From the NCBI GenBank assembly GCA_051942245.1, contig JAVECL010000037.1, positions 1-64,000 on the forward strand: a DNA stretch of 64,000 nt, written 5' to 3'. Both the position numbers and the translations under genes were made by a program. This document shows positions 18,307 to 48,555 of the stretch, piece by piece. The notes under the pieces are model-generated. The model ran no database searches and was not told the DNA's origin. It saw only the letters and a program-made list of their open reading frames with translations. This DNA is from Trypethelium eluteriae. Lineage: Eukaryota. Numbering within the stretch: position 1 is the stretch's first letter; each line of letters begins with the position of its first letter.

Positions 18307-21300
18307 TTATTTCAATAGCTTTATTCTTCTCCAGTAGGAGAGATAGGCTTTGATTGTATCCTCTCCAACGGGTCCCATGTTGGCCATAGTTGAGCTCACG
18401 GTGCGCGAGTTGGATGTGTCCAAAACTATAGACCCACACGACATTTTGAGAAAATCGTTTCGAAGAAAGTCTATGAGACCCGATGCAGGATTGTCCACTC
18501 CTGGCGCAGACGCAACAAGTTCCAGCCAACGCTCTAGTGGGATGATGGATGAGCTGGATATGGGGAGCTCCCTAGAGATGAGCATCACTGCCTCTTTCCA
18601 ATCCTGTCGAGCGGGATTCTCCAGATGATAGACCATTCGGAGCGGGCGATGGTCGAACAGGATCTCGGAGAGTACTTTGGCGGCTGAATCAACTGGAATC
18701 CAGGACAACGTCTTTTCATAGCGATTAGTAGGACGGTGGTCAGATACGGATTGGGAGGACTTACCCCACGGAGATCGGGAAATTTCCCTATCTTCTGAGA
18801 CGAAGCGCACACGGCGACAAAGTGTTCATTGGCGTTCCAATAGCCACTGCTGGCGCCTGCAATTTGCCCTACTCTGACCAAACCTGCCTCAATCTCCGGG
18901 TAATCCTCAGTTGCGCGTTGGACCATCTTCTCGCATACAAGTTTGGCGTTGGCATAACCGAGCTTAAGCGTCCAGGCCGAATCCTGAACAGCGACTTCAG
19001 GAATCAGGCTTTCTCCCTTTACCAATGGATAGTTACCAACAGTGGAGATGGAAGATATGAAGAGTACTCTTGGTTTCCTGTCCTGATGGTAAAAGTGTGC
19101 CTTGCGAGCTAGCTGGATCAGGTTCTGCAGGCTTCTGAACGAGGCATCATAAGACTGCAGACCCATCTTGAAATTCATCGGCCATGCAATGTGTACAATG
19201 TGCGTTACTTCGGTCGCTAGGCGCTCGTACTCAGACTGTACCAATCCGAGGCAAGGGGCTGCTGTGCTAGTTTGGCGTATCTCGACCTTGGTCCACATGT
19301 CATCACTTACTGAGATGCCCCGTGATTTCATGGCAAGTCGTTGGGCTTCAATTGGAGTCTCTCTCCCGGGTCTGTTCAGACAGATGACGCAATCCACTGA
19401 GTCATCCTTGAGAAGCTGTTCAAGGAAGAAGGAACCCAAGCTTCCAGTGGCGCCTGTAAGTAAGACCACTTTCTTTCGATCCCCACGATTATCTCTGCCG
19501 GTGTACTTACTGACAAGCTGTTCTATGAGTTCTGATTCATGTATGATCCCGTTTGGTGTCGAATGTTTTGGAATCAACGCCTCAACAAGCATGCTGACAG
19601 ATGGATGAAGATACACAAAGTCGTCGGTGATCTCATCAACGGGCAGGACGCGGTCTGCCTCAGACCCAAGCGCGGCATGTGTCGCGCGTATCGAGGCTGT
19701 TAGCAACCTTCGCAGCTTAGTTGCCTGAAGACTATCCATTCCCCAAGCAAAGAAGTCGTCGTTGTCCTGCATGTCGACATCATGTGCTTGCCACTGGACG
19801 TTTTCTGTCACAAGAGCCCTAATACTTGTCCGCGGCGAGGACAAGTCAAGCGGGGGTGCGGCTACATTTGCCTCCAGATTGCGATAGAGCTCCGCTATCT
19901 CTTCACCAAACTTCTTGGCCACCGTATTTCGGAGGATAGTCCCCTTATCTGATCGTGGGAGGGCGCCGGGCGGTACAACCAGTATGGCAGCTAGCGACGT
20001 GATCCTAGCATGGGCATCCATTTCACGGCCGGCAGCCTCGATTGCTGGCCATATCGACGCCTTGAAGTTCTCCATCTCGTCATCTCTGATGACTTTGGTG
20101 GACTCGATGATGATCACCAATTCAAACTGCTTCTCTCCAAAGCCAGTGGCATCCTTTACGCCGTCGTGCTGTCTGAGGAGAGATTCCAATATGGTAGGCC
20201 GTACTTTCTCGCCTGTTGCAAGGCAAATTAAGTCATCAGTACGGCCGGCAATAAAGAATTCTAGTTGTCCGATGTCGCTTTCCAGGGGTAACTCCCGCCT
20301 GGTTACGATCAGATCTTGGAGCTCGAAGCGCTCTTTCCATCCGAATGGCCGCAGACTAAGCTTATACTTATAGGCTCGCTCAGAGTCGGAGTCAGGCTGC
20401 TGATCCTCGTCCACGTCGACATGATCCAGTCTGACTTGAAGCGGTTTAAGTGTGTCACTTCGCAGCTTCAGTCGACGCCAGTCATATCCCCTAGCAGGTA
20501 TGAAAAACGGGGTCAGTGGTCCAGTTTCGGTAGCGCCGTATTGCATGACCAATCTTACTCCAGCAGCGTCGAGCCTGTCTCCGACAGACGCCTTCGGTGC
20601 GCCACCACCAAAACCAACAAAATCCAGTGCTCGAAGTACCTCATGCCCTTTGTTCTCCGGTAGAGACTCAATCTCCTCCAAAATCGACGGCACGGTTAAC
20701 AATGCTTTCGCTCCAGCTTCTTCTATGAGCGATGCAGTGGATGCACCATTCGGAATCATAGAAGGTGGAGGGATGCATATCGTTTTGCCAATACTGAGAG
20801 ACAAGCAGATTGCCACGAAGCCAAATCCCTGTCGCCACAGTTAATGCGAAGCTCGCAGCATCATTCGCTTTCTCAAGACTTACGTGAAAGAATGGCAGTG
20901 TCGAGACGGTAAGACCGTGAGCTTCCTCATTGGAATTGAAGGTATGACATGTTGCGTAACCCAAGTAATATCGATGGGAGCAGGGAATTGGCTTCGGGAG
21001 CCCTGAAGTCCCTGAAGAATGGAGAATGAGCACTTGGCGGTCGTCTTCGGAGACGAAGTGGCTTGAATGCGCCACTCGCATAGGTTGATATACATCTGCA
21101 AACTCCTCATCTTTCAGAAAATCTTCATATCCAGCTGCTTGGCGGATTTTCATTTCATTTTCAGCTCCTCTTCCTTTACCATTCTCTACGGCAGGGAAAG
21201 CTTCAGAAGCAAGGGGTTGCAGGCGTGGCGATACAACAACGAACTTCGCGCCTGTTTCTCGGATGAGATGGCGCACGGCAGGTGCACTCAAGCGCGCCGA

Positions 21301-21654
21301 TAGCAGTATAACTGGCACACCAAGACCCATCAGTGCGAGCACATAGATCGCTAGACCCACGTGACTTTCCATCAGGATGGCAACGGGCGCGCATTTCTTC
21401 ACTTGCCCGTTAGTATCGATGATAGGCGCGTGAAGACCAATGGCATCTTCTTTCAGCCAAGCCTGACAGCGGGTTATAGCTCGCTGTAGCCTCTCGTAGT
21501 TCACTGTCACAAAACGATTGTTCTTTTCCGCTTGGATACAGAAAAGGTGCTGCGGATTATTTTCACCGTGGAAGTCAACGAGTTCAGGCAATGTTCGTAT
21601 GCCCGGCCCCATTCCGGGGTCCAGATTCACTTTGGGTGTTATGAAAGCTGCCAT
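18307..21654 (-). CDS. NRPS-like carboxylic acid reductase (A-T-R)
   Basis: A domain ILHSSGTSGLPKP, YGATETG, GRTDD; T domain FFAWGMDSL; R domain LLTGATGSLG and GYANAK. Introns 20829-20883 and 18712-18764. Start MAAFITPK at 21654 is inferred. Confidence 0.92.
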
Positions 21655-21929
21655 ATTTGTAGAGACCGTCATCCCAGCGAATGCTTGTATGTGAAGGTCG
21701 ACGACTGGAGGGATGCCTGTTGCTAGGTTATGAACTTTTCCAGCTACGAAATCACGAAAAACGCCCTTTAGTGCCCATCTGTCCAATGCAAGCAGAGATA
21801 TGTCGACAGGTGGTGGGTTCTCGTTGCTGTTGACCTCAGCTATGAAAGGCAAACCAATCAGGCTTGGTGGGCCCAAGTTGGGGACACCGGCAGCCCGAGT
21901 GGCCGGGAGCAGTTATTGTGGAGCAGTGG

Positions 21930-21939
21930 AACTCGGGTC
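21930..21939 (+). promoter_or_regulatory. Cluster promoter motif AACTCGGGTC upstream of NRPS-like gene
   Basis: Exact 10-mer shared with the P450, DMATS and FAD-oxidase promoters. Confidence 0.6.
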
Positions 21940-22117: not shown

Positions 22118-23628
22118 TTAATTATCGTTGACAATGCACTGGATTTTGAGGCCTGCACTGTGTTTGAGAACGCTTCCCATAATCTCGTGGGCAATACACG
22201 GATCCACCTGGCTCAGAGTCAGAGTGACACTGCCCTTTTGTTTGATTTCTTTGCGAGTTTCGCCATGGGCATAGACACTTGCACTGGCATTGTTCTCAAT
22301 GCCCACATGGTTGCTCGAGCCATCTTTGCTTCCTGGTATATCGAAGTACCCAACATCGAGTAATGCGGGATTCTGAAAGCATTGTTCATCCGTGGCACTT
22401 TTGGCCAACCATGGAGTTTGAGAAGCAGCTGCATCGGACGTTGTGGACTCTAATGCATTGAACCATGCTGTAGAGCCACTACAGGGCGTTGAAAGCCCCA
22501 CGTAAGTCTGGTCCTGTCTTGTAGTACCTGACCAGTGCGGCTCAAACACAGAATTCGTCGTCAAATGCGTCGCTGAAGATGTATGAGGCTGCTGAAAGTG
22601 CGGAATGCAAACGGGATCAATTCTGAGCTCTGAGGGGATGCTGATTTCCTGCTGAGTCATGATACCCCTGGACGACTCCTGAGCTTGGTGTAATTCTGAT
22701 GAGCCGGTATATTCACATTCAGAATTTTCATCACACGCATCCTCATCACCGTCGTCCTCTTCTCCATCACTACCCTGTGGTCCACCGTTCACCATATCGT
22801 CATCATCAAATGGCGGGCTAGGTTGTTGAGCTGGGACAGGGCGTCTAGGAAGTGTTTTTCGGCTCCGACGACCAAGAAGAAGACTCCTTGATATATTCAG
22901 CTAGTGTCACCGTTTGGCACAGGTTTTTTCTGGTCTCACCGATTACGAATATCGTGAGTGGAGCGGTCAGGTAGATCTGATAGCCCGATTTGCTTCCAGT
23001 TATTGCCGTATTTTGTGATGGCGTCCAGCAATTTTCTATCCTCTTCGGGAGTCCATGGAGAGTGCTTGAAGTCAGGCCCCAACACATGCTGCCATCGTTT
23101 TGCACACTCTGCCGCCGAATGCATGTTAGTTGAAGCGGACCGAGAATCATACCGGATGAGTACTTACGGTCTGCATTACGAGTTTGGACCATAGTGGCCA
23201 CTTGACACCATCTATGAGAGCTGAGAGTGAGTCTCAAAATCTGAACAGGGTTGCAAAGTCGAGGAGTAAGAGAATGAGAGGTAACGAACTTGAAGCCTAG
23301 TTGTTCAACTGCTTGCTTGAGACGCTCATCCTCTTCTCGTGTCCATGCCCCCTTTCTGATGTCCAGCTGTATCTTGGACCATCGCTTGCGGCAGTCTTTG
23401 TTGGTGCGATCGGGCAACGATGCAGCGATGTCGTTCCAGTTTTGGACAGTGCCATCTTCGCGCACTATGATACATGATGCAATGATTAGAATTCAGCCGT
23501 AACCCAAAGAAACATGTGACCACATAGGTCAGGAGCGGCAGCAGGCGATTACATTGAATTCGCACCCCATTCTTCAAAATATCATCTTCCTGACTGGTCC
23601 ACCATCGGCGTTCTCGCTGGGTAGCCAT
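22118..23628 (-). CDS. Three-repeat Myb/SANT transcription factor, likely cluster regulator
   Basis: Three Trp-spaced repeats across several introns: [60 protein letters not shown]. Acidic C-terminal region. Confidence 0.88.
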
Positions 23629-26022: not shown

Positions 26023-29000
26023 ATGACTACGACATTCGGCTTCGAGACGGCTAGGGCCCTCCCACATGACGTTCCGCCTAATGCCATAGCAGTCGTCGGT
26101 ATGGCATGCAAATTTCCTGGAGCCGACTCCGTGGAAGAATACTGGCGCCTCTTAGACGCAGGAAAATCAATGCTGAGCAAGCCACCCAGCGGACGATTCC
26201 CGACCCATGAACACCCACGAAACACGGAGAGGACGGTGTATTTCGGTAACTATCTCGATGAGCTTGAAAGCTTCGACAACCGCTTCTTCAAGAAGTCCGC
26301 CCGCGAGGCGGCTTCAATGGACCCCCAACAACGACTTCTGCTCGAGGTTTCATATCAAGCCTTGGAATCTTCTGGTTTCTTCGGCCCCCGTGAACCAGAT
26401 CTTGACGTGGGTTGCTTCATTGGAGTGTGCGCGTCCGACTATAACGACAACGTAGCCAGTCATCCATCAAATGCCTTCTCAGCATTAGGAACTTTGAGAG
26501 CCTTCGTCCCAGGCAGAGTCAGCCACTTCTTTGGACTATGTGGGCCTTCGGTCGCTCTAGATACGGCCTGTTCGTCGTCTGCAGTGGCCATTGATGCTGC
26601 TTGTAAGGCGATCCTTTATGGCGACTGCAAGAGTGCCATTGCCGGTGGAGTTTCAGTCTTTACGAGTCCGTTTTTCTACCAAAACCTAGCCGCTGCGTCT
26701 TTCCTTAGTCCGACGGGCGCGAGTAAGTCATTTGATGCTGGCGCTGATGGTTACTGCCGAGGCGAAGGCGTTGGTCTCGTTGTTTTGAAACGACTTTCGC
26801 AGGCCGTCGTAGATGGTGATACCGTCCTGGGCACAATTCTCGCCACTTCAGTCAGACAAAGCAGTAATAAGGTACCTATTACAGTGCCATATTCCGCATC
26901 TCAGACCGGCTTGTACCGCAAGCTTCTGAGTACAGCTGGCATCGCTGCTGAGGATGTCAGTTACGTTGAAGCTCACGGAACCGGCACGCCTGTTGGGGAC
27001 CCCCTCGAATACGAAGCTATCAAGGAGGTATTTGGCGGCAAGTCAAGACGGGAGCCTCTTCATCTAGCCTCCGTCAAAGGGAACATCGGACACACTGAAG
27101 GTGCTTCTGGAGTTGCTGGTCTGATCAAGACCATTTTGATGATGCAGAACCGCACCATCCCGAGACAAGCTAATTATGTATCGGCGCATCCCAAGATTAG
27201 CCTCGTACCAGGGCAGATCTCCATCCCCACAGAGAACCTTCAGTGGAATGCTAAATCCCTCATCGCGTGCGTCAATAACTATGGAGCCGCGGGTAGTATC
27301 GCTGCAATGGTTGTCAAGGAAGCGAGGCAAGGGCAGAGTCTGCAGGCTACACAGACCCGCGGCCTGAGCAAATACCCCTTGATTGTCACTGCGAACAGTA
27401 CCAAAAGTCTCGGCCAGAACTGCGCCAAATTGAGGGACTTTGTGTCCTCGTTCCAGGGTGGTGCCGCTTCTCGTGCGAGTCTGCTGGCGGATCTGACTTT
27501 CAATTTGAGCGAGAAGCAAAATCGATCGTTACCCAACATATTCACAACAACAGTCTCCAGCTTGTCGGATTTGGATGACCAGCTTCGTACTGTGGCGTCG
27601 AATCCCGGTTTGCCACTCTGCCAAACGAATCCCAAGCCGAATCCAATCGTTTTGGTCTTTGGTGGTCAAACAACTCGATCTGTGGGCCTCAACAAGCAGG
27701 TGTACGAGACTTCAGCACTTCTCCGCAAGTACCTTGATGAGTGTGACGCGGTGCTCAAGGGCTTTGGATATCGGGGTATCTATCCTTACATATTTGAGAC
27801 GAAGCCCGCCGACGACGTTGTCTCGAACCAGACAATGCAATTTGCGCTACAATACGCTTGCGCTCAAGCGTGGATCGCCTGCGGTCTGAAGGTCGACGCT
27901 GTCCTGGGTCATTCTTTTGGTCAGCTCGTTGCCCTAACGGTGGCTGGCGTGCTCCCCCTGGTAGACGGTCTTAAGCTAGTGTACGGACGAGCTATTCTGA
28001 TGCGCGATCGATGGGGCTTTGAAAGAGGTTCCATGATTGCCCTTGAAGCTGGTCGTGACGAGGCAATGGGACTTGTCGCGTCAGTACAGCAGACAAACGG
28101 CTCTTCAGACTCTGGACTTGAGGTGGCATGTTTCAACGGACCGAAAAGTCACGTGCTCGTCGGAACTTCCGCCGAAATTAACGAGGCGTCCAAGAAAACA
28201 ACAAGGGCAAAGGCGAAGATCTTGGACGTGACCCACGGCTTCCACTCAAGGTTCTGCGATCCCATACTCTCCGAGTTGGAGAGGCTGGCCCAGGGTTTGA
28301 CATTCAACAAGCCTAAGATACATGTCGAGACCTGTTCCATCGGGGAGACGTGGCCTTCTGTCACACCAAAGCTGATAACGGACCACACTCGCGCACCAGT
28401 CTACTTTGAAGACGCAGTCAAGCGTATCGCGACCCGATATGGCGCGTGTACCTGGTTAGAAGCCGGCTCTCATTCGTCCGTCACTGGCATCGCTCGTCGG
28501 GCTCTATCCGATCAGAATGGCCAAACCGTCAACGATCTATTCTGTCCCGTTAACTTGAATCGAGATGATTCTCTGGGCGCCTTGGCAGATACGACCGTCA
28601 ATCTCTGGAAGCATGGTCACCACGTTCAGTTCTGGCCATTTCATCACATCCACAACCAAGATTACCTATCTCTGAATCTGCCTCCATATCAGTTCGAGAA
28701 GTCACGGCACTGGCTCGAGTTTGACCTTGGCACAGAGGAGGCATCTAAGTCAAACACTGCACCGTCTAAGACGCCTGAGCCGTCAGCCGTTGAACCGGAG
28801 CCGGAGCCAGTACTCATTACCTTTTCTGGCTTCCAAGACGCTGTTGATGGAGGTCACGATGGCGCAAGACAGGCTGTTTTCACGATTGACCCACGTTCGG
28901 AGGAGTGGAAAGCGCTCGTCGCCGGTCATTCCGTGCTACACGAGTCTCTATGTCCGGCGCCATTGTACATCGAGCTGGTTTTACGAGCTGCTAATCAGCT

Positions 29001-36045: not shown

Positions 36046-38087
36046 ATGGATCTGGAATACCTTTCCAGGCATATCGATGCCAGGGTCTGCAACCTAGCCG
36101 GTATTCTAGCTGCTGCCGCCATATTCGTAGCCGTCTGCAACACTCTGTACTCCTATCTGCGCTTGAGACATATTCCGGGCCCACGTTCAGCAGCTCTCAG
36201 CAACCTGGTGCGTCGATCGTGGGTCAAGACTGGTGACGCCCATCACATACACACCAATTTACATCGTCAATATGGTCCGGTTGTGCGATACGGGCCCAAT
36301 GCAATCATGGTCTCCGACCCTGGTGCCATCGAGAAGATCTATGGATTCAAGAATCGATTTGAGAAAGTATGTCATAATCTCCTTCCGTCTTCGTGGCTAC
36401 CTGCATGTCTAAAGTCACATAGTCTGAGTTTTATGACTCCATCATGCCTAGGATCAAGGGCGGCAAGATTCCAGACGTATTTGCCACTCGTGACGAGAAC
36501 GTACATCGGCAAATGAGACGTCCTGTGGCTAATTTATACTCGGCTACAAATCTGACCAGATTCGAACCGCTTATGACGTCCACTTTACAGTATTTTTTTT
36601 CCCGCTTAGATGAACTATATACTGACGAGAAAGTCGAGTTGGATCTCTTCAAATGGATCCAACTCTTCATGTTCGATGTCCTTGGCGAGGTTACGTTTTC
36701 GCGCGCTCTGGGGTGCCTTGAAAAGGGGGACGATGTCGAAGGCGTCATTGAGGGCATCTGGCTTTACTTCAAGAAGATCTCAGCAGTGCGTACTTATCCC
36801 AGCTCAATCTTTCACGCGGCTTGAACCCTCTTGCTGATCATCTGTCCACGTCTCAGAATACCCAGATGCCTTGGCTGGATTATCTGTGGAGGGACAATCC
36901 CTTGGTCCCCGTTTCGACCAAGAGGAACCCGCTGGCCGAGTTTGGCATGGCTCGTATTATGGAGCGAATGAGTCTGACCGAGAACGAGAAGCTCAACATC
37001 GGCGAGAAAGACTTCCTCTCGTGTTTCATAAAGGAGCAGGCTAAGGACGATACTCTGCCTGATATGTAAGTAATTGCTCAAGCCTTGGCAAATATTGCGT
37101 ACACACCAACTAATACATAACGCACTTACAGGTTCGTTCCCACATGGGTAAGTCGTTTGAGGACCAGTTGAGAGAGTTCATTAAAGCGGCTTAGGGATGC
37201 GCTTTCTGCATGAAACTCTTGAGACGTGGTTCAAGGCGTATCCGCGTGTGAAAGATCAATGACTAACCCGACTCTTACAAGGTTAATTCCAACATTGTTG
37301 CGGGAGCAGACACGACCAGTATAGTTGCCAGCGCTTTGATGTATCATCTTCTCAAGAACCCCGCCTCTCTGTCAAAACTCAGAAAAGAGGTCGATGACGC
37401 CGCATGCGAGGGCCGCATCTCCAAATACGCAACCTGGAAAGAGTCTCGAACCCTGCCCTACCTAGAGGCCTGTGTGAACGAGGCCACTAGGATGAATCCA
37501 CCTTTCGCCCTCCCCTTTGAGCGTGTGGTACCCGAGACAGGAGTGGAAATCGACGGCTACTTTATTCCACCGGGCGCCAGGGTCGGAATGGTAAGTAAAC
37601 TCCTCTGCTTTTGGATCCTCGAATGCCAGTTCTTTGCTGACGCTTTATTAATTGTGCCAGAGCCCTTGGGTGGTGCATCGTGAGGCATCGCTGTACGGCG
37701 ACGATGCCGAGGTTTGGCGACCGGAGCGGTGGATGTGCAGCGAAGAGAAGAGAACGGCCATGTACAACGGACTTCTAACGGTAAGTCAAATCGCTACCAC
37801 GATGACCTTTCCGTTCCGTCAGCTCACTTTCCATTTCGCTCAGTTTGGCGCGGGTCACCGAAGCTGTCTTGGGAAGCAGCTTGCCTATTTTGAGATCTAT
37901 AAGCTCATTCCATCGCTGCTGCAGCGTTACGATGTAAGTGAACCTTGGGTTGCTTATTTTGTTGAGAATCTAAATTGATATTCCGTGTCAGATTGAACTT
38001 GTCAGTCCCGTTGGGGATTGGTCTATCGAGAATAGATGGCTTGCCAAGCCGTCCGGGTTCCGCGTAAAATTATCAAGTCGCCGCTAG
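36046..38087 (+). CDS. Cytochrome P450 monooxygenase
   Basis: N-terminal anchor, IPGP, AGADTT, EATR, PERW and FGAGHRSCLG. About seven introns, including a 16-nt micro-exon at 37132-37147. Confidence 0.93.
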
Positions 38088-39008: not shown

Positions 39009-40394
39009 ATGCCAGCTCTCATAACAAAGTCGGAGGCTGAAGCGCCGCCGCCCAAGGTGTGGAATTCGTTGGTGAAGAAGTGTCTCCCGCCCGCCGAAAG
39101 TAAAGATGTCGACTTCTGGTGGAAACTCACTGGGTACCACCTAGCTGTCATGATCGATGCGGCCGGCTATTCCACTGAAAAGCAGTACGAGGTGCTGCTT
39201 TTCCACTATCACTGGGTCGTAAGTAAAACTGGATACGCAAATGGCCAAGAAATGTTCTGATTGCATGTTCAGGTACCTCGGTTGGGTCCCGCACCACATC
39301 CAGATGGCCGCGCTGTGTTCAAGTCACTTATAGCCTACGATGGCTCGCCCTTGGAGTACTCCTGGAAATGGAACACTACAACGGGTGAACCCGATATCCG
39401 CTACTCCTGGGAGGCAATCGGGCCCAACTCGGGCACGGCCGCAGACCCACTGAACCACGATCCCACATTAGATTACATGGAGAAGGTGCCGAGCGTACTC
39501 CCGGGCGTAGATTTCTCTTGGTATCGTCACTTCCTGCGCGAGTTGTACAACCCAGATAGATCCGCCTATGCCAAAGAGCTGGAACAGGGCGAACCCCCAG
39601 CTACTACTCTCATGCACGCTGTCGAGTACAACAAGGAGAAAAGCTTCGGACTCAAGTCGTACTTCCTGCCACGAAAACTGTTCCAAGGAGGTGACCCCGC
39701 GACGTCAAAGGAATGGGACGAGGCCATCATAAAGCTCAACCCCGACGGAAATCATCCTGGCCGTGACGCCCTACAGCACTTCCTCAAGAACAGTCCCGAG
39801 GGCCGACTCATGAAGCCCAACGTGATGGGCATGGACGATGTCAAGCCATCAAAGTCGCGGCTGAAGATGTACTTCACCTCAGCTCACACCTGCTTCAACT
39901 CAGTCCGAGAAATCATGACTATGAGCGGAACCCGAGACATTCCGGAATCTAGCCTGCAGGACCTTCGCTCCATGATCCTCGCCGTGTTGGGTCTTCCCAG
40001 TGACTTCCCCGAGGATGTCGAGATCCCCGTCGAGGGCAACGCCGACAACGATTGGCCCGACTTCGCCGCGCTATGCGAGGGTTTCGTGTACTTCTTTGAC
40101 ATCGCTCCCACAAGTGGCACGCCGGATGTCAAGTTCTACTTGACCACGCGTAAGTACGGGGCGGACGATCTGACCATCGCCCGGAACCTAACGGCTTGGA
40201 TGCGCGCACACGGTCGCGGTGTCTACGCCGACCAGTACATGGGCATGTTGGAGAAGCTCGCAGTGCACAGAGGGCTGGAGAACGGGAAGGGGATGCATGC
40301 GTACATCAGCTACCAGTGTACCAAGAAGGGAGAGCCGGATATTAAGTCGTACATTTCTCCTGAGTTGTACCATAAAGCGCGCTATGCTGCGTAA
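39009..40394 (+). CDS. DMATS/ABBA-family aromatic prenyltransferase
   Basis: DFWWKLTG, AGYS..QY..LLF, LGPAP, DGSPLEYSWKW, LKSYF, SRLKMY, VKFY, IKSYISP. Intron 39219-39272. Confidence 0.92.
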
Positions 40395-40487
40395 AATGCC
40401 CTGCTGGGGATAGCCTATGACCAAATGTAAACACATATTGAACACAACCACGATATTTACAAGCGATATGCATGTCAAATATATCTC

Positions 40488-42047
40488 TCATGACATCTCA
40501 ATGCTCCTGCGCTGGGTATTCTCCCATAGTAAACGGCCTGGATTGTCGTGCAACGCGAATATCCAAGGGAGGCCACACAACTGACGCCGGATAGCTGGCC
40601 AGTCATGTAGGTCCAGTCTTCCGCATGTCTCCAAAATCAAAGATGACAGCCAAGGATGATCCATGCGTTTCAACGTTGAGATGCCAGCCACGAAGAGAGT
40701 CCATAAAAGTAGTGAGGATCCGCCGTCCTTGGAGTCTGTAGATATGGTCTGAAGATACCGAATAGCACTCTCCAGACGAGCAGACAAAAGAAGGTAATTG
40801 GATTGGTCAGAACCGTATTCCGGAAGCAGGGTTGTCATGAATGCTAGCAGTGCAAGATGCGCTGCCTCTTCATGGGTGCTTCTCGACATGCAGCGTGGTT
40901 GACCCAGGGGAGCGGCCTCTAGTAGACGATAGATGAGCGACAATAGCGCCTCCGTGAAGTTAAGTGGATCAAGCTTCGTTCTCCCTTCCTTCTGCCTACT
41001 ATTCAGGAGGCTGACAAAGCTGAGAACATCGAGCATGATACGTGAAAGCCAGGGGTTGGTGCTGGAATACTGCTGTTTGGTGATGGATGAATCGTCTAGG
41101 ACAGCGTTTGCGGGTATTGCATCGCTGTGAAACAGGGTTGGTGAGCCGGTCTGCAACGCCAGCTCGACATCAAGCCTGTCAATTGTAAGAATTTCCGCTG
41201 CGGAGGAAAGATAAGAAGACTAAAAAGGCGGCGGATGCAAGCACATGCACCTACCTCAATGGCTTCAGTGCCAAAGCACGATTCTCTTTCATCAACCTGG
41301 CAATTCCGCCCCGCAACTGTATCATTCGATACAGCCCATTGAGATGTATCAAGCCAGTAGAGTGTTGATGATGCACCTGTTGGTAGATGGCTAGAGTAAC
41401 GACAGCAGCAATCGCGCTATCTGAAACTGACTGGGGACCTGACAGCCTTAAATTCACTAATTCATACGCCTTCGAGATGTGATGTAAAGTCTTCGGCGAG
41501 ATTGAAGACTTGCGCTCGAAGAAGTCGACATAGGACGCCGAGATTGCCAATGTAGAGTGAAAGTCTGGCGACCCTTAATGTTGCTGCATAAAAGGGGTGT
41601 TCGGCTTGTTACTTACATGCTTCATCTGCCAAGACACAATTCATCCAAATTGACTTTATTATGTCGAATTTCCTGCAGAATTGGGGCGGAAATAGCGCAT
41701 CACTAATGTCGAAGAACCCTGACAAGCGTGTAAGAAGATGAAGTGGACAAACGGTTAGAGAACACTGTACATCGATGCATAAGTTTAGTAGCTTCGGAAT
41801 CAAGTTGCTGAGGAAAGGAAATCAGACACAGATCATTCCACAGCAAGGATTTTGGGCTTTCTGCCGGTGTACAGGGCGGAGTTAGGACGCCTTTTTTGGT
41901 ATGAACGTCGGTCGTCTGTCTTCTCCTCGACGGGCGTGGTCTGCCTGCATTCTTGCCTCTCATGACATGGGAACGAATGATGCGCCGCTCGGACTTGCCT
42001 ATCCCTACCGATCCTTGTTCGATGAACTGAATCGCCATGCCCGTCAT
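40488..42047 (-). CDS. Fungal-specific transcription-factor-domain protein lacking a Zn2Cys6 motif
   Basis: N-terminal FI...RRIIRSHVMRGKN basic motif, HLNGLYRMIQLRGG, LLLWTLFVAG and C-terminal W..IRRQL..LPW. Three introns; start at 42047 or 42038. Confidence 0.7.
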
Positions 42048-43151: not shown

Positions 43152-44780
43152 CTATGTCCACTTTGCGAGATCGGACGGTACAGCGTGGTACCCGTTGAAG
43201 AAACCATGAGGGTCGTAGGCGTTCTTCACATTTGTCAGACGCTCATGTCGCCACTCGTCGTATCCGTAAAGGGCTGACAGCGGCTCGTCACCGTGAGCGT
43301 AGTTCTGGTAAATCTGGAGCTGGTCGTAGCCGTCAACAGTGTGGAACTTGTTGCGCCATCCCAGGAAAAAGCTATCAACCGCATCTCCCACGGAATCATC
43401 CGTATATGCACCGATGGCCTCGATGTGGTTGCGGAAAGTCTGACGATGAGGGAAGGCAGTGGCATTGTCGGGGAGTGCCTGGATGCCCTCGACGGCAAAT
43501 GTCTCGATCATCATGGCAGACCCGTTAGCCAGGGGGTTGTCGTGTAGGAACGTACTCAGATCGTTGGTGAAGTCGACCCAGCTTTGCGGCTCCAAAGTCT
43601 TGGATATCAAGCTGTAGAGATCGTATCGCAGTCCTTCAGCGCAGGCCCCCGGGAGAAGACCGAGAACCGACTTCGTGGGTAGGTCTGCCCATGCAACCAT
43701 GCTCTCTGCAAGAGTGAGGCTAAAGTCCGAAAATAGTTTGGTAAACTTCTGACCCTCATCCATGGGACCAGCATACACGATATTGACTATGATTTCGAGC
43801 TCGGACGTTGTGGCATTTTGGAAGAAGAACATGACGAAGGCCAGTGCAGGATCCAATCCGGGGCCCGTCAAGTTGTTAGTGACTTCCATGATTCGGTCTA
43901 CATCACTTTTGGCGAACGTCATGTCTGCATTGTAATGCATGCCATTATTGCTCGCAGGCCAGGTCTGGTAGGTAGTTTCGATGACGACGCCGTAGTTCTG
44001 GCCGGAGCCTCTCACAGCCCAGAACAAATCTGGGTTGACGTCTTCAGAGGCTTCCACGATGGTGCCATTGTACAAAGCCATGCGGACCTTGAGAAGAGCG
44101 TCGCTTGTCAGGCCGTGCTTGCCCTGAAGACGCCCGAGACCACCACCAAGCATGGCGCCAGTTGCACCGACGCAAGGACAGGATCCCACGTCTGAGCCCA
44201 GGTTAGAATGAGCACGAAACACTTGTGATTGAAAAACTTACTCAATTCTCTTCCTGAGTCGCCGACAGTTTTGACCATGTTTCCGAAAAGCACGCCTGTG
44301 CCTACAACGATTGTGCCATCGTCTTGCACGTTGGTGTAGTTGAAGTTCTCAAGGTTGATCAAGACGCCGTTTTGAATTACCTCTAGAGTTTCGGAGTATC
44401 CGTGACCTCCCGATTTTGCCAACCAGCTCAAATTGTTACTTGACATGTATTGAAGCTGCATGACCCGTACATTAGCCTCTATTCCATTCTGACCCGGAGA
44501 TATGGGCCTCAGAGGACGATCTACTTACGCCCTCAGATAACTCTTGCTCGGTCTCCGGAATGAATACTTGATTGAAGGTCGGAGCCTTGTACGTAGACCA
44601 CCGAGTCGTTGCTTCCGTGAAGTTGGGCCAGCTTTGGTCATGAACGAAGCTGGCCACATCACTAGGCCAGACGGAGCCATTCTGCCGCGGATAAAGATTT
44701 ACAGACGTCAAAGGTGTACTTGAGGCAGACTGGATGATTGCCAGGAGCCCCGGCAAGGCTTGAAGTGAAAGGCGCATCAT
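43152..44780 (-). CDS. Secreted FAD-linked oxidoreductase (BBE-like)
   Basis: Signal peptide MMRLSLQALPGLLAIIQSASS; KSGGHG flavinylation motif; CPCVG..G..LGGG.G, DLFWAVRG, YQNY and K..YDP. Two introns. Confidence 0.92.
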
Positions 44781-45166: not shown

Positions 45167-45217
45167 TGACTCAGGTCCGTTCACAACTCGGGTCTCATTT
45201 TTGGCCCGACTCAGGCC
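45167..45217 (+). promoter_or_regulatory. Three cluster motif copies upstream of the FAD oxidase
   Basis: TGACTCAGGTCC 45167-45178, AACTCGGGTC 45185-45194, GACTCAGGCC 45208-45217. Confidence 0.62.
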
Positions 45218-45739
45218 TTTCCAGTAAGACGGAAGCTTCGGCATGCCATTCGATTGGCGCTTAGTAGATACCTGATAAACATGGTCCGTCACCGTTTCAA
45301 AAAGCAATCCACGAGTCCCCAGGATCTATTTACAAATCCCAGACGCAGATCAAGAGCCGGCTGCATATACCGACTTTTAGGGTCTGTTGTCTAACGCGTG
45401 CATGAATGCTCTCTCAGGCGAAGCTGCCAATCACTGCCAAGCGAGGAAGAAATATCGAGGCTCGAGCAGAAGATCCCCGTGTCGATCGCTTTTTCAGCAT
45501 CAATATTCTCCACTGAAGAGTGCCGTAGTTATTGGGCGCCGGTGGGCGGTCTACGCAACCAAACCGCCATCCTGCAGCCGACAGAGGACCCAGATTTGCG
45601 CGCATGATCAAGATCATGCGATGATCAGGTCTAAGGAGACCAAATTTTTCAACCTCGGCCTCCGTTTCATATCCACAGCACACCGAGATAGCTACGCATA
45701 GAGTATCTCAGGGCGGTAAGTCCAGCACCATATGGTCGT

Positions 45740-46460
45740 AAGGCTATCTTGGTCACCAATGCAGCCAGGAGGATAGGACAGACAATCTTCATCTCATTCA
45801 CTACTACCGGAGCTGATCGCTTGATAATCGTGAACCGTGTCGACGCTTCTACCGCTCGCACCGGAGTCCTGAAGGCTGCGGCTGATGATGGGTCGATCCG
45901 TCCCCGAGGTGCTTGTTCTGAAGGTACGCGTCTTTGATACTGCTAGTGTTGAGACCGGCGTCAACGAGGTCAGCATGAGACGGGGACATCTTGATATCCT
46001 CATCAATAGCGGAGATAATCCAGCCCCATCAGAGCATCAGCCCCTAAGGCTCTTGCTCTGAAGTACGACCCCTTTGACGTTACGATTGTCAAGGCTGGTA
46101 TGAAGGAGGTCAACCCGAGATGGCGACACCTTGATATCCTCAGTCATAATGGGGATAGTCCGGCTCTTCGGAAGTACCAGCTCTTTTGCACAAGTGATAT
46201 AGACGTTTGGTGGACGACTTGGGAAGTCAACATTCAATGTGCCTACTTGGTTACCCCGGCCCTGCTGCCTTCCAAATTTCGGAAAACAGAGAAGACCATT
46301 ATCAATATGGTCGCCGTTGACTCCTTTGCGTTGATGCCAGGGGCAAGTTCGGAGCAGATCTCTAAGCTGGCGTTCATACGCCTTTTGGAATAACTGAGGC
46401 TCGATTAGGCGTACAAGAGGCTATTCGCACGCTCAGAGTATGCGGATATTTCCCACGTGA
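45740..46460 (+). pseudogene. Degenerate short-chain dehydrogenase
   Basis: ILVTNAARRIG (eroded TGxxxGIG), GHLDILIN, WWTTWEVNI..AYLV, TIINM, ISKLA. Frameshifts, stops and an internal ~140-bp duplication. Boundaries approximate. Confidence 0.65.
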
Positions 46461-47436
46461 TGTTCACTTATAGCATCGTGAGGATTTCTGTGGGAGATTT
46501 TGCTATGGGGGTTTTCGATAGGGTTTACCCAGACCGTGGAACTGGTAACGCTGAACGTTGGCATCGAATTCCGAGATAAAGTAATAATTTGGACGCCCTG
46601 CACTCGGTAAGAAGTCTCATACAAAAGACAATGAGCCGCTGCTGCGATTGGGGGGGCCTGGTCGTCAGAGGCTCAACCTACAAATTCAGGCCTCTAACAC
46701 TGAACGTCAGTGGGCAATGCGATAGGATGTACTTCTCGAGAGCGCCGAGCCCTTGCCCCAAGTCAGCCAAGGGCTTGCAATGACTGGACTGTGCACCAAG
46801 AGAGGATGATTCGAGAAATGTACGGGAACCTCACGTTAATGCGTACCTAGGCAATTGCAATCATGGCAATGCGTACCCTGGGAACAACCCGGGAGTACGG
46901 CGCACAATTACCCGCCGGAAATCTCCGAGAGCACGCGACGTGAAGCATAATCAGCTACTGCAAGATTTCTCCCGAAAGGAATGCATGTCAGATTTGCAGG
47001 AGGTCACCGAGGTGGTCAGACGAACGATCGTCGTCGTGTTATAGCGCTAGTCCAAAAGAAGATACCAATTTCTGATTGGTCAAGTACAAAGCATGGATTA
47101 GACATGGGTCAAAACAACTAACCCGAAACAGATACCAATATCCTATTCGTTCCTTTATCATGGACCCTGTGAGAGCCTATTTTTCGCGGAGACTGAAAGA
47201 GGAACCCAATATCTGATTGGCATGGCCGTGGCGGCCTTCTCGCGGCGCGGAAATTGTTAAGGGCGCCGAATTCGATGAGAAATCCGACGCTTGTATTAAA
47301 TGAATCTTTAGCATGACATCGTCAGACGTTTTACTCGACCGCAACACTATCCCCATCTACAGCTAACCTAGAGTCTGTTGCTTTACTTTGTCAACAATCT
47401 CAAAGATCTCGGCGCCACGACCACAGCGCAGGCAAG

Positions 47437-48555
47437 ATGGCGGTCATGATGAGGTTGACCGCTGAGCAATACAGGAAGCTCCCCATCCTGGCAAACAACT
47501 CGACTTGCTCCGGCAAGACCTACATAGTCACAGGCGGTAACTCCGGTCTGGGACTGGAAACTGCAAGGCATCTAGTCGAATTCTCGTCGGCGCGCGTTAT
47601 CCTAGCTGTCCGGAATCTCAGTTCAGGAGAAAAGGCCAAATCGGAGATTGAGAAATCGACCGGCCGCAAGGGAGTCGTACAGGTAAGTTCGCGAGAACAA
47701 CAATCATTTCGTGCCTCGAAGGTCTAATAGTATCTTGAATAGGTATGGCACATCGATATGGCATCGAACGCGTCAGTTCAAGCCTTCGCCAAGAAGGCAT
47801 CGGAAGAGCTGGACAGGATTGACGGTCTCGTTCTCAACGCCGGCATCATGATAGACAACTGGGCGCTCGCCGAGGGCATGGAGAGCAGTATCCAGGTCAA
47901 CGTGGTGAACACTTTATTTCTGGGGACTCTGATGATGCCCAAGTTGAGTGAGGATGCACGCAAACTGGGGACACATCCCACTCTCGTCTTCATTGTCAGC
48001 GTTCTAGGATACACTGTCAAGGCCGAGATGGACAAGAGCCGCCAGGGCAGCATCTTTGATGGACTCAACGACCAAAAAAAGGCGAATATGGACTCACGGT
48101 AATAACCCCTTGCATTATGTGATTTACTCGGTCAATGTGACTGACGTGGTCAACTTAGGTACGCTCTCACGAAGCTGGTTGAAGAGCTTGCGGTACGCCA
48201 ATTTGCGGCTTTGTGTCCTGTAGAGAAAACGGGCGTGGTTGTAAACATGGTTGCGCCTGGTCTCTGCTCGACCGGCTTAGGCGGGGACGTAAGAACATTT
48301 ACCAAGATCATGCATGAGGGGATCCGAGCTATGATGGCGCGCAGTGCGGAGGTAGGAAGTCGCACCATCTTGCATGGTCTGGTGGCCGGCGAGGAGAGTC
48401 ATGGAAAACTGTTGTCGGGTTGTAAGATTAAGGAATACTGGGTTCCAGGGTGGGTCAGCAATGCAGAAGGTCAACGCTTACAGAAGGGAATCTGGACGGA
48501 GCTCGTTGAGAGGCTAGAGAGTGTGCAGCCTGGATGTATCTCACAAATTTCATAG
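47437..48555 (+). CDS. Short-chain dehydrogenase/reductase
   Basis: TGGNSGLG, NAG, YALTK. Introns 47683-47742 and 48100-48158. Confidence 0.9.

What the first reader, a model, noticed from the sequence alone, without database searches (positions are those of the whole stretch)
18307..48555. Intact cluster predicted to make a prenylated methyl-orsellinaldehyde/phthalide-type metabolite
Seen: NR-PKS with cMT and hydrolase, A-T-R reductase, P450, DMATS, BBE-like oxidase, SDR and Myb TF, all with intact catalytic motifs. No O-methyltransferase, FAD monooxygenase or halogenase was seen. Established: NR-PKS plus A-T-R pairs such as A. terreus ATEG_03629/ATEG_03630 give methylated orsellinaldehyde; MpaD-type P450s oxidise the aryl methyl; BBE-like enzymes can cyclise prenylphenols to chromenes or benzofurans; ascochlorin-type clusters use a UbiA-type prenyltransferase rather than a DMATS. 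Inference: acid, then aldehyde, then methyl oxidation, dimethylallylation and cyclisation or reduction. I do not recognise this exact gene set as a characterised cluster.
Basis: partly seen in the sequence, partly recalled or inferred. Interest (0 to 1): 0.8.

Follow-up and report, generated by a model that had tools for sequence, protein, structure and literature searches.

The report
Zinniol-like polyketide cluster in lichen fungus
This is an intact fungal gene cluster, labelled as coming from the lichen fungus Trypethelium eluteriae, whose enzymes match one by one those of the recently solved zinniol/zinnimidine pathway of Alternaria except for a missing O-methyltransferase, so it probably makes an unmethylated prenylated phthalide or isoindolinone relative that nobody has yet isolated.

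Summary
Window 18307-48555 carries intact genes for these parts:
- a SAT-less NR-PKS (KS-AT-PT-ACP-ACP-cMT-esterase)
- an A-T-R carboxylate reductase
- a P450, a DMATS prenyltransferase, a BBE-like flavoprotein and an SDR
- a Myb regulator

No O-methyltransferase, FAD monooxygenase or halogenase was found anywhere in the window.

The gene set is not unprecedented. The Alternaria alternata zin cluster (J Biol Chem 2025) has the same six enzyme types plus an O-methyltransferase, and makes zinniol, O-prenyl phthalides and zinnimidine. A metagenome orthologue of zin (L003) is 45-54% identical to the window's P450, DMATS, BBE, SDR and reductase.

In the DMATS and BBE trees the window sits in a tight 12-member clade next to the zin type. 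That clade holds Trypetheliaceae, Colletotrichum, Seiridium, Pestalotiopsis and Penicillium. Only one of its enzymes has been studied: PnlA of Pestalotiopsis fici, in vitro. The window's reductase shares PnlA's unusual Q specificity residue.

The BBE-like enzyme is therefore more likely a benzylic diol oxidase, as ZinD is, than a prenyl cyclase. The product is unknown. I rate this a new variant of a known kind, of moderate interest.

The parts
18307..21672 (-). A-T-R carboxylate reductase (NRPS-like), 3 exons, 1085 aa. Introns at 20829-20883 and 18712-18764. PnlA-type, with Q359 at the specificity position.
   Evidence: Pfam. Exon limits from tblastn with P0057 and the splice solver. Code residue.
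22118..23628 (-). Myb-type regulator with three Myb repeats. The limits are approximate and the splice model is not solved.
   Evidence: Pfam Myb_DNA-binding on 22848-23492. Frame reading. The solver found no full model.
26023..33173 (+). SAT-less non-reducing PKS, KS-AT-PT-ACP-ACP-cMT-esterase (Abhydrolase_3), 2363 aa, with one intron at 32177-32235.
   Evidence: Pfam. Identical to P0001. Motifs. No SAT domain.
33799..35484 (+). SMI1/KNR4 (SUKH) family ORF of 561 codons, stop to stop. It lies inside the cluster and its role is unknown.
   Evidence: Pfam PF09346, E 9.4e-11. Run X2 has a contig on 35064-35273.
36046..38087 (+). Cytochrome P450, 8 exons, 507 aa, ZinA-like.
   Evidence: Pfam and model. 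75% identity with 0 gaps over 432 aa to the P450 part of P0029. 51% to the P450 at the zinA position of L003.
39009..40394 (+). DMATS-type aromatic prenyltransferase, 2 exons, 443 aa, ZinC-like.
   Evidence: Pfam Trp_DMAT, E 1.6e-80. Model, homologues, tree, PDB matches. X2 contigs lie on 39412-40174.
40488..42047 (-). Fungal-specific regulator (PF11951), possibly ZinG-like. The limits are approximate and the splice model is not solved.
   Evidence: Pfam on 40491-41219 and 41254-41574. A homologous fragment lies beside the DMATS in L002. No full model was found.
43152..44780 (-). BBE-like/VAO flavoprotein with a signal peptide, 3 exons, 501 aa, ZinD-like.
   Evidence: Pfam. Model, checked against six homologues. 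Homologues and tree.
45692..46390 (+). SDR-like remnant, probably a pseudogene. Its Pfam score is below the gathering cut-off, its motifs are degenerate, and two fragments cover the same profile positions.
   Evidence: No direct DNA repeat was found.
47437..48555 (+). Short-chain dehydrogenase, 3 exons, 332 aa, ZinE-like.
   Evidence: Pfam and model. 49% to the SDR of L003. Intron 47683-47742 is confirmed by a spliced X2 contig.
49276..51399 (+). HET-domain ORF directly downstream. The zin cluster also lists a HET gene (ORF1), but homology between the two was not tested.
   Evidence: Pfam HET, E 3.3e-30. zin gene list.

Best explanation
This is a working biosynthetic gene cluster of a lichen-forming Dothideomycete. 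The database label on the identical proteins is Trypethelium eluteriae.

It is a sister form of the Alternaria zin (zinniol/zinnimidine) cluster and the orthologue of the barely studied 'pnl' locus of Pestalotiopsis fici. All pathway steps below are inferred by homology; none was shown here.

1. The SAT-less NR-PKS makes a C-methylated orsellinic acid. 3-methylorsellinic acid is the most likely product, and 3,5-dimethyl- or 5-methylorsellinic acid remain possible.
2. The A-T-R reductase turns the acid into the aryl aldehyde.
3. The SDR reduces the aldehyde to the benzyl alcohol, and the P450 hydroxylates the neighbouring aryl methyl. This gives a 1,2-benzenedimethanol.
4. The DMATS puts a dimethylallyl group on a phenolic oxygen.
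5. The secreted BBE-like flavoprotein oxidises the diol to a reactive phthalaldehyde. That aldehyde condenses with ammonia or amines to give isoindolinones. Alternatively, the SDR running in reverse leads to phthalides.

No O-methyltransferase is present, so the products should be O-desmethyl relatives of zinniol, prenyl phthalides or zinnimidine. The Myb and PF11951 proteins are the likely regulators.
For: Gene content, intactness and motifs are shown.

zin pathway. Gene functions were established by expression, feeding and in vitro assays in PMC12268544. I read sections 4, 5 and 7 and passages of supplement tables S1, S2, S4 and S5.

L003 as a stand-in for zin:
- Metagenome locus L003 has the order P450, O-methyltransferase, DMATS, BBE, SDR, reductase, the same as zinA to zinF.
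- Its protein ends match my by-eye translations of the zinA, C, D and E ends at roughly 70-93%. I therefore treat it as a zin orthologue.
- Window proteins against L003: P450 51%, DMATS 54%, BBE 45%, SDR 49%, reductase 54%.
- Window PKS against Alternaria P0044: 58% over the full length. P0044's N-terminus matches ZinH by eye.

Trees:
- DMATS tree (42 rows): the window sits in a 12-row clade (SH-aLRT 100). That clade is sister (99) to an 11-row clade that holds the zin-type pair.
- BBE tree (41 rows): a 12-row clade (99) is sister (93) to the zin-type pair.

Clustering in relatives, from locus tags or shared contigs:
- T. subeluteriae: PKS 001872, DMATS 001870, BBE 001869.
- P. fici: reductase 00364, regulator 00365, PKS 00366, BBE 00370.
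- Seiridium: PKS, DMATS and BBE on one 205,285-base contig.
- C. somersetense: PKS, BBE and reductase on one 79,943-base contig.
- P. mononematosum: DMATS 010514, BBE 010521.
- L002: BBE, P450, DMATS, regulator.

DMATS type. The best solved relatives are 9iia (E 3e-85) and DMATS1 of entry 8day (E 1e-50). The tryptophan C4-prenyltransferase of 3i4x scores only 8e-15.

Transcription. Run X2 has 7 contigs at 99% identity or more on the PKS, SMI1, DMATS and SDR genes, and one of them is spliced across SDR intron 1.
Against: - No product is known for this clade, and no chemistry was seen.
- The window's cluster is the sister of zin, not zin itself (45-58% identity), so steps may differ.
- The O-methyltransferase is absent. 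In zin it acts before aldehyde reduction, and the authors suggest this avoids quinone methide formation. L002 also lacks it between the P450 and the DMATS. The order of steps, or the outcome, may therefore be different.
- The reductase carries Q where the ZinF-type (L003) and the A. terreus enzyme carry H. PnlA, the Q-type enzyme, converted 3,5-dimethylorsellinic acid 100% but 3-methylorsellinic acid 58.8%.
- In the BBE tree the zin pair sits on a long branch (1.02), and the sister relation has SH-aLRT 93, not starred.
- X2 is only guessed to be RNA. Apart from the one spliced contig, its pieces could be DNA.
- About 19 kb of the source contig lies outside the window and was not seen, and no genome was held. 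An O-methyltransferase elsewhere cannot be excluded.
- As I recall, and did not read here, the metabolites reported from T. eluteriae are trypethelones and phenalenones, not phthalides. The listing shows phenalenone reviews only.
Confidence: 0.6

Rival explanations
1. The same cluster, but built on 3,5-dimethylorsellinic acid. The PKS methylates twice and the Q-type reductase makes 3,5-dimethylorsellinaldehyde, as the P. fici authors proposed for PFICI_00366/PnlA. With no free ring carbon, the DMATS must O-prenylate. The P450 and BBE then oxidise one or more of three methyl groups, giving hexasubstituted phthalide or phthalaldehyde products unlike zinniol.
For: - PnlA converted DMOA 100%, 3-MOA 58.8%, 5-MOA 19.2% and orsellinic acid 22.6%.
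- The window reductase has the same Q at the code position.
- Among the 150 best representatives, the motif was readable in 56. Only 4 of these carry Q, and they are the 4 closest to the window; 40 carry H.
- The window PKS is 66% identical to PFICI_00366.
Against: - The DMOA proposal rests on 34-37% identity of PFICI_00366 to AusA-type synthases. The window PKS is 58% identical to the ZinH-type (3-MOA) and 56% to the A. terreus enzyme.
- PnlA is promiscuous: it accepted 14 of 28 acids, and vanillic acid at 95.8%.
- The PKS product was never measured for any member of this clade.
- As cited in the zin paper, an O-prenyl methyl phthalide of the zinniol type was isolated from Pestalotiopsis photiniae.
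Confidence: 0.2
2. The DMATS C-prenylates the methyl-orsellinaldehyde, and the BBE-like oxidase cyclises the prenyl phenol to a chromene or benzofuran, in the manner of plant cannabinoid and daurichromenic acid synthases.
For: - BBE-like enzymes can do such cyclisations (established knowledge, recalled).
- The missing O-methyltransferase leaves a free ortho hydroxyl.
- The window clade is distinct from the zin clade, so a change of function is possible.
Against: - The protein is full-length homologous to the ZinD type: 45% to L003 and 51% to the Plenodomus protein that lies beside a ZinC-like DMATS.
- THCA, CBDA and CBCA synthases match only a 70-residue FAD-binding stretch, at E about 4e-9 to 4e-8.
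- The nearest characterised DMATS, ZinC, O-prenylates.
- The P450 and SDR partners needed for the diol route are both present and conserved.
Confidence: 0.12
3. The genes are neighbours but not a functioning pathway: a silent or decaying cluster in the lichen fungus.
For: - One SDR-like gene inside it is degenerate.
- No phthalide-type compound from this species is known to me.
- The one run that may be RNA shows low depth, 3-7 for most pieces.
Against: - All six enzyme genes and both regulators are open with intact motifs.
- Relatives are 78-90% identical in two other Trypetheliaceae, which fits purifying selection.
- A spliced transcript contig exists for the SDR, and contigs lie on three other genes.
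Confidence: 0.06

Closest known systems
zin cluster of Alternaria alternata (zinniol, O-prenyl phthalides, zinnimidine, porritoxin); Luo et al., J Biol Chem 2025, PMC12268544
   Same: - The same enzyme families: SAT-less nrPKS with cMT and esterase (ZinH, 2308 aa against 2363), A-T-R reductase (ZinF), P450 (ZinA, 495 against 507), DMATS-type prenyltransferase (ZinC, 443 against 443), flavin oxidoreductase (ZinD, 507 against 501), SDR (ZinE, 331 against 332), and a regulator.
- A HET gene lies nearby in both.
- Each window enzyme is 45-58% identical to its zin-type counterpart.
- The DMATS and BBE clades are neighbours in the trees.
   Different: - No O-methyltransferase (ZinB) and no second P450 (ZinI).
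- The gene order differs: in the window, reductase, Myb, PKS, SMI1, P450, DMATS, TF, BBE, SDR.
- The reductase has Q, not H, at the specificity position.
- There is an extra Myb regulator and an SMI1/KNR4 gene.
- The window belongs to a separate, tightly conserved clade, not the zin clade.
pnl locus of Pestalotiopsis fici (PnlA = PFICI_00364, regulator PFICI_00365, NR-PKS PFICI_00366); Li et al., J Fungi 2022, PMC9605436
   Same: - Probable orthologue. The PKS is 66% identical.
- The reductase has three exons and 1085 aa, against 3261 bp in three exons for pnlA, and the same Q code.
- The arrangement reductase, regulator, PKS is the same.
- A 67%-identical BBE protein is PFICI_00370, four genes on.
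   Different: - Only PnlA was studied, and in vitro only.
- The authors drew a three-gene cluster and did not mention the P450, DMATS or BBE genes. They describe a SAT domain that Pfam does not find in this clade.
- The product is unknown, so it gives no answer for the window either.
Cichorine (cic) and aspernidine (pkf) clusters of Aspergillus nidulans
   Same: Per the zin paper, these are isoindolinone pathways from 3-methylorsellinic or orsellinic units. They use an nrPKS, reduction of the acid, a P450 (CicH/PkfB) and an SDR-like enzyme.
   Different: - They have no ZinD-type flavoprotein.
- pkf uses an R domain on the PKS.
- cic has no prenyltransferase listed in what I read.
- No sequence of theirs was compared here. 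The Aspergillus section Nidulantes SAT-less PKSs are about 48.6% identical, and their identity with PkbA is my guess.
   Same: An NR-PKS plus A-T-R pair of the same families. The fused annotation P0057 is 56% identical to the PKS and 47-51% to the reductase.
   Different: - H at the reductase code position.
- As I recall (not read here), the A. terreus locus feeds azasperpyranone and has no DMATS or ZinD-type oxidase.

Membership tests
zin-type (ZinADEF cassette) phthalide/isoindolinone cluster | SAT-less nrPKS with cMT and esterase release domain, homologous to ZinH | tested here: met
   Architecture. 58% identity to Alternaria P0044, whose N-terminus matches ZinH by eye.
zin-type (ZinADEF cassette) phthalide/isoindolinone cluster | The PKS product is 3-methylorsellinic acid | not testable with these tools
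   Identity to the 3-MOA (58%) and 5-MOA (56%) enzymes is nearly equal. Expression is needed.
zin-type (ZinADEF cassette) phthalide/isoindolinone cluster | A-T-R reductase homologous to ZinF | tested here: met
   54% identity to the reductase of zin orthologue L003. All three domains have their motifs. The specificity residue differs: Q against H.
zin-type (ZinADEF cassette) phthalide/isoindolinone cluster | P450 homologous to ZinA | tested here: met
   51% identity to the P450 at the zinA position of L003. The L003 N-terminus matches ZinA by eye.
zin-type (ZinADEF cassette) phthalide/isoindolinone cluster | Flavin oxidoreductase homologous to ZinD | tested here: met
   45% identity to L003 and 51% to the Plenodomus 507-aa protein. 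Sister position in the tree, SH-aLRT 93. The activity was not tested.
zin-type (ZinADEF cassette) phthalide/isoindolinone cluster | SDR homologous to ZinE | tested here: met
   49% identity to the L003 SDR. The N-terminus resembles ZinE by eye.
zin-type (ZinADEF cassette) phthalide/isoindolinone cluster | DMATS-type O-prenyltransferase homologous to ZinC | tested here: met
   54% identity to L003. Sister clades, SH-aLRT 99. Regiochemistry was not tested.
zin-type (ZinADEF cassette) phthalide/isoindolinone cluster | O-methyltransferase ZinB in the cluster | tested here: not met
   There is no methyltransferase Pfam hit outside the PKS in the 39 + 74 ORFs of the window. L003 has one between the P450 and the DMATS. 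The window and L002 do not.
PnlA-type (P. fici pnl) cluster | Reductase with Q at the position called 355 in PnlA | tested here: met
   Window Q359, with the four other conserved marker residues at a constant offset of +4. Q occurs only in the 4 nearest of the 56 readable representatives.
PnlA-type (P. fici pnl) cluster | Reductase, regulator and NR-PKS as neighbours, with the PKS orthologous to PFICI_00366 | tested here: met
   The window order is reductase(-), Myb(-), PKS(+). 66% PKS identity. The type of regulator PFICI_00365 was not seen.
Tryptophan dimethylallyltransferase (indole prenylation) | Close kinship to indole C-prenyltransferases and a context of indole alkaloid genes | tested here: not met
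   The tryptophan dimethylallyltransferase of 3i4x scores E 8e-15, against 3e-85 and 1e-50 for 9iia and 8day. The gene sits in a polyketide cluster conserved across genera.

The most novel reading that the evidence does not exclude
The window represents a distinct, unusually conserved sister lineage of the zin cluster.
- It has no O-methyltransferase, a Q-code reductase and a Myb regulator.
- Identity across three fungal classes is DMATS 78-86%, P450 75% and PKS 64-69%.
- It is scattered among Trypetheliaceae lichens, Colletotrichum, Xylariales and Penicillium.

Its end product would be an undescribed family of free-phenol, O-prenylated phthalaldehyde or isoindolinone metabolites, possibly built on 3,5-dimethylorsellinic acid. 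That would be the first of this chemistry from a lichen fungus. The patchy spread could reflect transfer of the whole cluster between classes.
Probability: 0.3. Interest if true: 0.55.

Novelty: new variant of a known kind. Interest (0 to 1): 0.4.

Why it matters
Lichen fungi grow slowly and their chemistry is mostly known from depsides, depsidones and quinones. A zinniol-like, amine-reactive phthalaldehyde pathway in a lichen mycobiont would add a new compound class.

Related PKS-BBE pairs also appear in several Teloschistaceae lichen assemblies.

The practical gain is that the cluster now has a worked-out template, the zin pathway. Each step can therefore be tested directly with known substrates and assays. 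The natural absence of the O-methyltransferase offers a test of the zin authors' idea that methylation protects against quinone methide formation.

For genome mining, the finding also shows that the P. fici 'pnl' cluster was drawn too small, and that its family is widespread in plant-associated fungi.

Tried and rejected
- Whole-PKS homologue search timed out. I repeated it on residues 900-1300.
- No whole genome is held for the window. An O-methyltransferase elsewhere, and paralogous clusters, could not be looked for.
- Earlier findings of this scan: nothing by place or by words.
- Primers zinD-F and zinE-F from the zin supplement do not match L003 with up to 3 mismatches. L003 is therefore not A. 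alternata itself. I established its zin orthology by eye instead.
- I did not type the zin gene sequences of the supplement into any tool. Direct alignments to ZinA-H were therefore not made, and identities to 'zin' are to the stand-ins L003, P0044 and the Plenodomus proteins.
- Fig. 7 of the zin paper (13 genera with ZinADEF homologues) is a figure and could not be read. Whether it already shows this clade is unknown.
- A search for PDB code 9IIA in the paper library gave 19 unrelated papers. The function of that closest solved prenyltransferase stays unknown to me.
- Literature searches for a characterised orthologue found only the zin and PnlA papers.
- The search for 'Trypethelium eluteriae' listed 16 papers by title, none on this cluster. 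I did not open them.
- Splice models for the Myb and PF11951 regulators were not solved.
- No direct DNA repeat was found in the SDR remnant.
- Sequencing runs: no listed holder is on record as RNA. X2 is a guessed RNA run with a 0.07 share of the sampled words. Parts of the cluster without X2 cover say nothing.
- I considered that this cluster might make trypethelone, a prenyl-derived dihydrofuran naphthoquinone known from this species by recollection. I rejected the idea: the PKS belongs to the monocyclic methylorsellinic acid clade and has no relative among naphthalene or phenalenone synthases.

Full report
**What is there**

The window is fungal DNA with short GT-AG introns.
- an A-T-R reductase on the minus strand (18588-21912)
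- a Myb protein (minus, 22848-23492)
- a large PKS (plus, 26005-32184) with KS, AT, PT-type dehydratase fold, two carrier domains and a C-methyltransferase, followed by an Abhydrolase_3 exon (32220-33170)
- an SMI1/KNR4 ORF (33799-35481)
- P450 fragments (36423-37975)
- a DMATS (38982-40391)
- a PF11951 regulator (minus, 40491-41574)
- a FAD_binding_4/BBE protein (minus, 43155-44524)
- a weak SDR-like piece (46019-46390)
- an SDR (47317-48099)
- a HET protein (49276-51396)

I built splice models with a small GT-AG solver, guided by homologues:

| Gene | Coordinates | Introns | Length |
|---|---|---|---|
| PKS | 26023-33173 | one | 2363 aa |
| Reductase | 21672-18307 | two | 1085 aa |
| P450 | 36046-38087 | seven | 507 aa |
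| DMATS | 39009-40394 | one | 443 aa |
| BBE | 44780-43152 | two | 501 aa |
| SDR | 47437-48555 | two | 332 aa |

- The PKS model equals database protein P0001 letter for letter.
- The P450 model aligns without a gap, at 75% identity over 432 residues, to the P450 portion of a Colletotrichum scovillei annotation that fuses PKS and P450 (P0029).
- The BBE model fits six homologues. The deposited model P0182 (468 aa) has a different N-terminus that they do not share.
- The catalytic and cofactor motifs are all present.
- The PKS has no SAT domain. Pfam finds none, and tblastn with the first 380 residues of five SAT-bearing relatives finds nothing better than E 0.09 in the window.

**What is not there**

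I listed 75 flank ORFs of 90 aa or more. I scanned 74 of them, because the HET ORF had already been scanned. Seven had a Pfam hit:
- alcohol dehydrogenase (two)
- ankyrin
- sugar transporter (two)
- CPAF-like PDZ
- NACHT

No O-methyltransferase, FAD monooxygenase or halogenase appears there or in the 39 ORFs.

**Source**

The PKS is 100% identical over the searched part to a protein that NCBI labels as from a Trypethelium eluteriae metagenome-assembled genome (locus tag Q9157_001297). The BBE exon is 100% identical to Q9157_001301. T. eluteriae is a lichen-forming Dothideomycete.

**The closest characterised system**

A full-text search for zinnimidine led to Luo et al., J Biol Chem 2025 (PMC12268544). 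I read sections 4, 5 and 7 and passages of the supplement.

The A. alternata zin cluster encodes:

| Protein | Type | Length |
|---|---|---|
| ZinH | nrPKS | 2308 aa |
| ZinF | A-T-R | 1199 aa |
| ZinA | P450 | 495 aa |
| ZinB | O-methyltransferase | 480 aa |
| ZinC | prenyltransferase | 443 aa |
| ZinD | flavin oxidoreductase | 507 aa |
| ZinE | SDR | 331 aa |
| ZinG | regulator | 417 aa |
| ORF1 | HET protein | 448 aa |
| ORF2 | unknown | 607 aa |
| ZinI | second P450, no role found | 503 aa |

The pathway, shown there by expression, feeding and in vitro assays, runs as follows:
1. ZinH makes 3-methylorsellinic acid.
2. ZinF reduces it to the aldehyde.
3. ZinB O-methylates.
4. ZinE reduces the aldehyde to the alcohol.
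5. ZinA hydroxylates the neighbouring methyl, giving a benzenedimethanol.
6. ZinC O-prenylates it, giving zinniol.
7. ZinD oxidises the diol to a phthalaldehyde with release of H2O2. The aldehyde reacts with ammonia or amines to give zinnimidine and porritoxin.
8. ZinE in reverse gives the phthalides.

Apart from ZinB and ZinI, this is the gene set of the window.

**Testing the homology without typing the published sequences**

A scan of metagenome contigs with the DMATS exon matched 39 stretches, of which 13 became loci.

L003 (21 kb) as a zin orthologue:
- tblastn with my models and Pfam give the order P450, O-methyltransferase (minus), DMATS, BBE (minus), SDR, reductase (minus). This is the order zinA to zinF.
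- I translated by eye the starts and ends of zinA, zinC, zinD and zinE shown in the supplement. I compared them with the L003 translations. They agree at roughly 70-93%.
- L003 is thus a zin orthologue from another fungus. The zinD-F and zinE-F primers do not match it.

Window proteins against zin-type counterparts:

| Window protein | Counterpart | Identity |
|---|---|---|
| P450 | L003 | 51% |
| DMATS | L003 | 54% |
| BBE | L003 | 45% |
| SDR | L003 | 49% |
| Reductase | L003 | 54% |
| PKS (full length) | P0044 (Alternaria alternantherae, 2305 aa) | 58% |

- The N-terminus of P0044 matches ZinH by eye.
- A Plenodomus genome has adjacent genes for a 443-aa DMATS (55% to the window) and a 507-aa BBE protein (51%). 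These are the lengths of ZinC and ZinD.

**The window's own clade**

Closer relatives exist.

| Protein | Relatives and identity |
|---|---|
| PKS (full length) | T. subeluteriae 89%; Bathelium 79%; Colletotrichum, Penicillium hordei, Seiridium, Pestalotiopsis fici and Biscogniauxia 66-69%; P. salamii 64% |
| DMATS | T. subeluteriae and Bathelium 86%; Colletotrichum and Seiridium 83-84%; Penicillium 78%; Histoplasma 72% |
| BBE | T. subeluteriae 82%; Bathelium 73%; Monosporascus, Seiridium, Penicillium, P. fici, Lobaria and Colletotrichum 63-71% |

Locus tags and shared contigs show the genes clustered in these genomes too:
- T. subeluteriae: PKS 001872, DMATS 001870, BBE 001869.
- P. fici: PFICI_00364, 00365, 00366 and 00370.
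- Seiridium: three genes on one contig.
- C. somersetense: PKS, BBE and reductase on one 79,943-base contig.
- P. mononematosum: DMATS 010514 and BBE 010521.
- L002, a 6.4-kb metagenome contig with a 79%-identical DMATS: BBE, P450, DMATS and the PF11951 regulator, with no methyltransferase between the P450 and the DMATS.

Trees made with IQ-TREE (quick search, SH-aLRT only):
- DMATS tree. It has 42 rows: 35 of the 61 hits, mostly named and full-length, plus the window and six locus translations. The window sits in a 12-row clade (support 100). That clade is sister (99) to an 11-row clade holding the zin-type pair.
- BBE tree. It has 41 rows: 39 of the 120 listed hits, plus the window and L003. 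The same genera form a 12-row clade (99), which is sister (93, with a long branch) to the zin-type pair.

The window cluster is therefore a sister form of zin, not zin itself.

**The one studied enzyme of this clade**

Li et al., J Fungi 2022 (PMC9605436; passages and a supplement legend read) characterised PnlA (PFICI_00364).
- It is a reductase of three exons and 3261 bp.
- It lies beside regulator PFICI_00365 and NR-PKS PFICI_00366.

In vitro conversions:

| Substrate | Conversion |
|---|---|
| 3,5-dimethylorsellinic acid | 100% |
| vanillic acid | 95.8% |
| 3-methylorsellinic acid | 58.8% |
| orsellinic acid | 22.6% |
| 5-methylorsellinic acid | 19.2% |

- The authors point to Q355, where other aryl-acid reductases have H or F.
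- In the window reductase the four other marker residues they name fall at a constant offset of +4. The code position is Q359.
- L003 (ZinF type) and A. terreus P0057 have H.
- A HMMER search of 1.84 billion representatives with the large reductase exon listed 150 proteins. The motif was readable in 56: Q in 4, H in 40, F in 4 and other residues in 8. The four with Q are the four best hits. One of them is the C. somersetense protein on the PKS contig.
- The Q code is thus a mark of this clade. It may mean a different acid substrate.
- The P. fici authors proposed 3,5-dimethylorsellinic acid, but on 34-37% identity to AusA-type synthases. The window PKS is nearer to the ZinH type (58%) and to the A. 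terreus enzyme (56%). The product cannot be read from sequence.

**The prenyltransferase and the flavoprotein**
- Against solved structures, the DMATS exon matches 9iia (E 3e-85, about half the residues identical in the printed alignment; function unknown to me) and DMATS1 of entry 8day (E 1e-50). The tryptophan dimethylallyltransferase of 3i4x scores only 8e-15.
- With ZinC as the nearest characterised relative, O-prenylation of a phenol is the best guess. Action on tryptophan is unlikely.
- The BBE exon has only distant solved relatives: PpBBE-like 1 at 8e-20, EncM, and oligosaccharide oxidases. THCA synthase scores 3.5e-9, over about 70 residues.
- Its kinship to the ZinD type, its signal peptide, and the presence of the P450 and SDR that make the diol all favour a benzylic diol oxidase over a prenyl cyclase.

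**Transcription**

One search for sequencing runs listed X1, a DNA run that may be the source, and X2, a guessed RNA run with a small share of the words.

Laid on 30000-49000, X2 gives 7 contigs, all at 99% identity or more:
- PKS: 31203-31375
- SMI1 gene: 35064-35273
- DMATS: three pieces in 39412-40174
- SDR: 47368-47941 and 48303-48609

The 47368-47941 contig skips 60 bases with GT..AG ends. That is exactly my predicted intron 47683-47742. So spliced transcript exists for the SDR. The other pieces fit transcription of three more genes but could be DNA. Depths say nothing about level.

**Verdict**
- The role it gave the BBE-like enzyme is the less likely one.
- What remains new is a distinct, conserved, methyltransferase-less sister lineage with a Q-code reductase, here in a lichen fungus, whose product nobody has determined.
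- I rate it a new variant of a known kind, with interest 0.4.

Noticed in passing
window 33799-35484 (+): An uninterrupted 561-codon ORF with an SMI1/KNR4 (SUKH-1) domain sits between the PKS and the P450. Run X2 has a contig on it. The locus tags of T. subeluteriae leave room for only one gene between PKS and DMATS, so it may be absent there. The zin cluster lists an unknown 607-aa ORF2, which I could not compare.
   Followed up: partly
window 45692-46390 (+): This is an SDR-like stretch with degenerate cofactor and catalytic motifs. Its Pfam score of 25.6 is below the 26.6 cut-off. Two fragments in different frames cover the same profile positions. It looks like a decayed or partly duplicated SDR gene between the BBE and the working SDR.
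   Followed up: partly
window 43152-44780 and 39009-40394: The deposited protein model for the BBE gene (P0182, 468 aa) has an N-terminus that six homologues do not share. No 100% match to the window's DMATS came back (best 96%, a Logan protein), so that gene may be unannotated or mis-modelled in the deposited assembly.
   Followed up: partly
window 48772-48826: In DNA run X1, many contigs begin or end here with loose ends. Summed depth rises from about 400 to about 1130 in the last bin. A short dispersed repeat probably lies between the SDR and the HET gene.
   Followed up: no
window 49276-51399 and 62076-64000: A HET-domain gene and an NPHP3_N/NACHT (NLR-like) gene flank the cluster on the right. 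On the left are an ankyrin-repeat gene (3296-4600) and a sugar transporter (5282-7392).
   Followed up: no
window 12056-15668 (-): Three long minus-strand ORFs (378, 335 and 227 codons) have no Pfam hit. They may be one large unknown gene.
   Followed up: no
proteins P0047, P0049, P0052, P0053 (PKS) and P0212, P0215, P0226 (BBE): Three Teloschistaceae lichen assemblies (Squamulea, Polycauliona, Xanthocarpia) carry a related SAT-less PKS and a ZinD-like flavoprotein two or three locus tags apart. In Variospora velana the two genes are far apart. Lobaria and Heterodermia also have BBE homologues. zin-like cassettes seem common in lichen fungi.
   Followed up: no
PMC9605436 versus P0032: The P. 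fici paper describes PFICI_00366 as having a SAT domain and draws a three-gene cluster. The precomputed Pfam list for P0032 has no SAT family. A 67%-identical BBE homologue is PFICI_00370, so that cluster is probably larger than published.
   Followed up: partly
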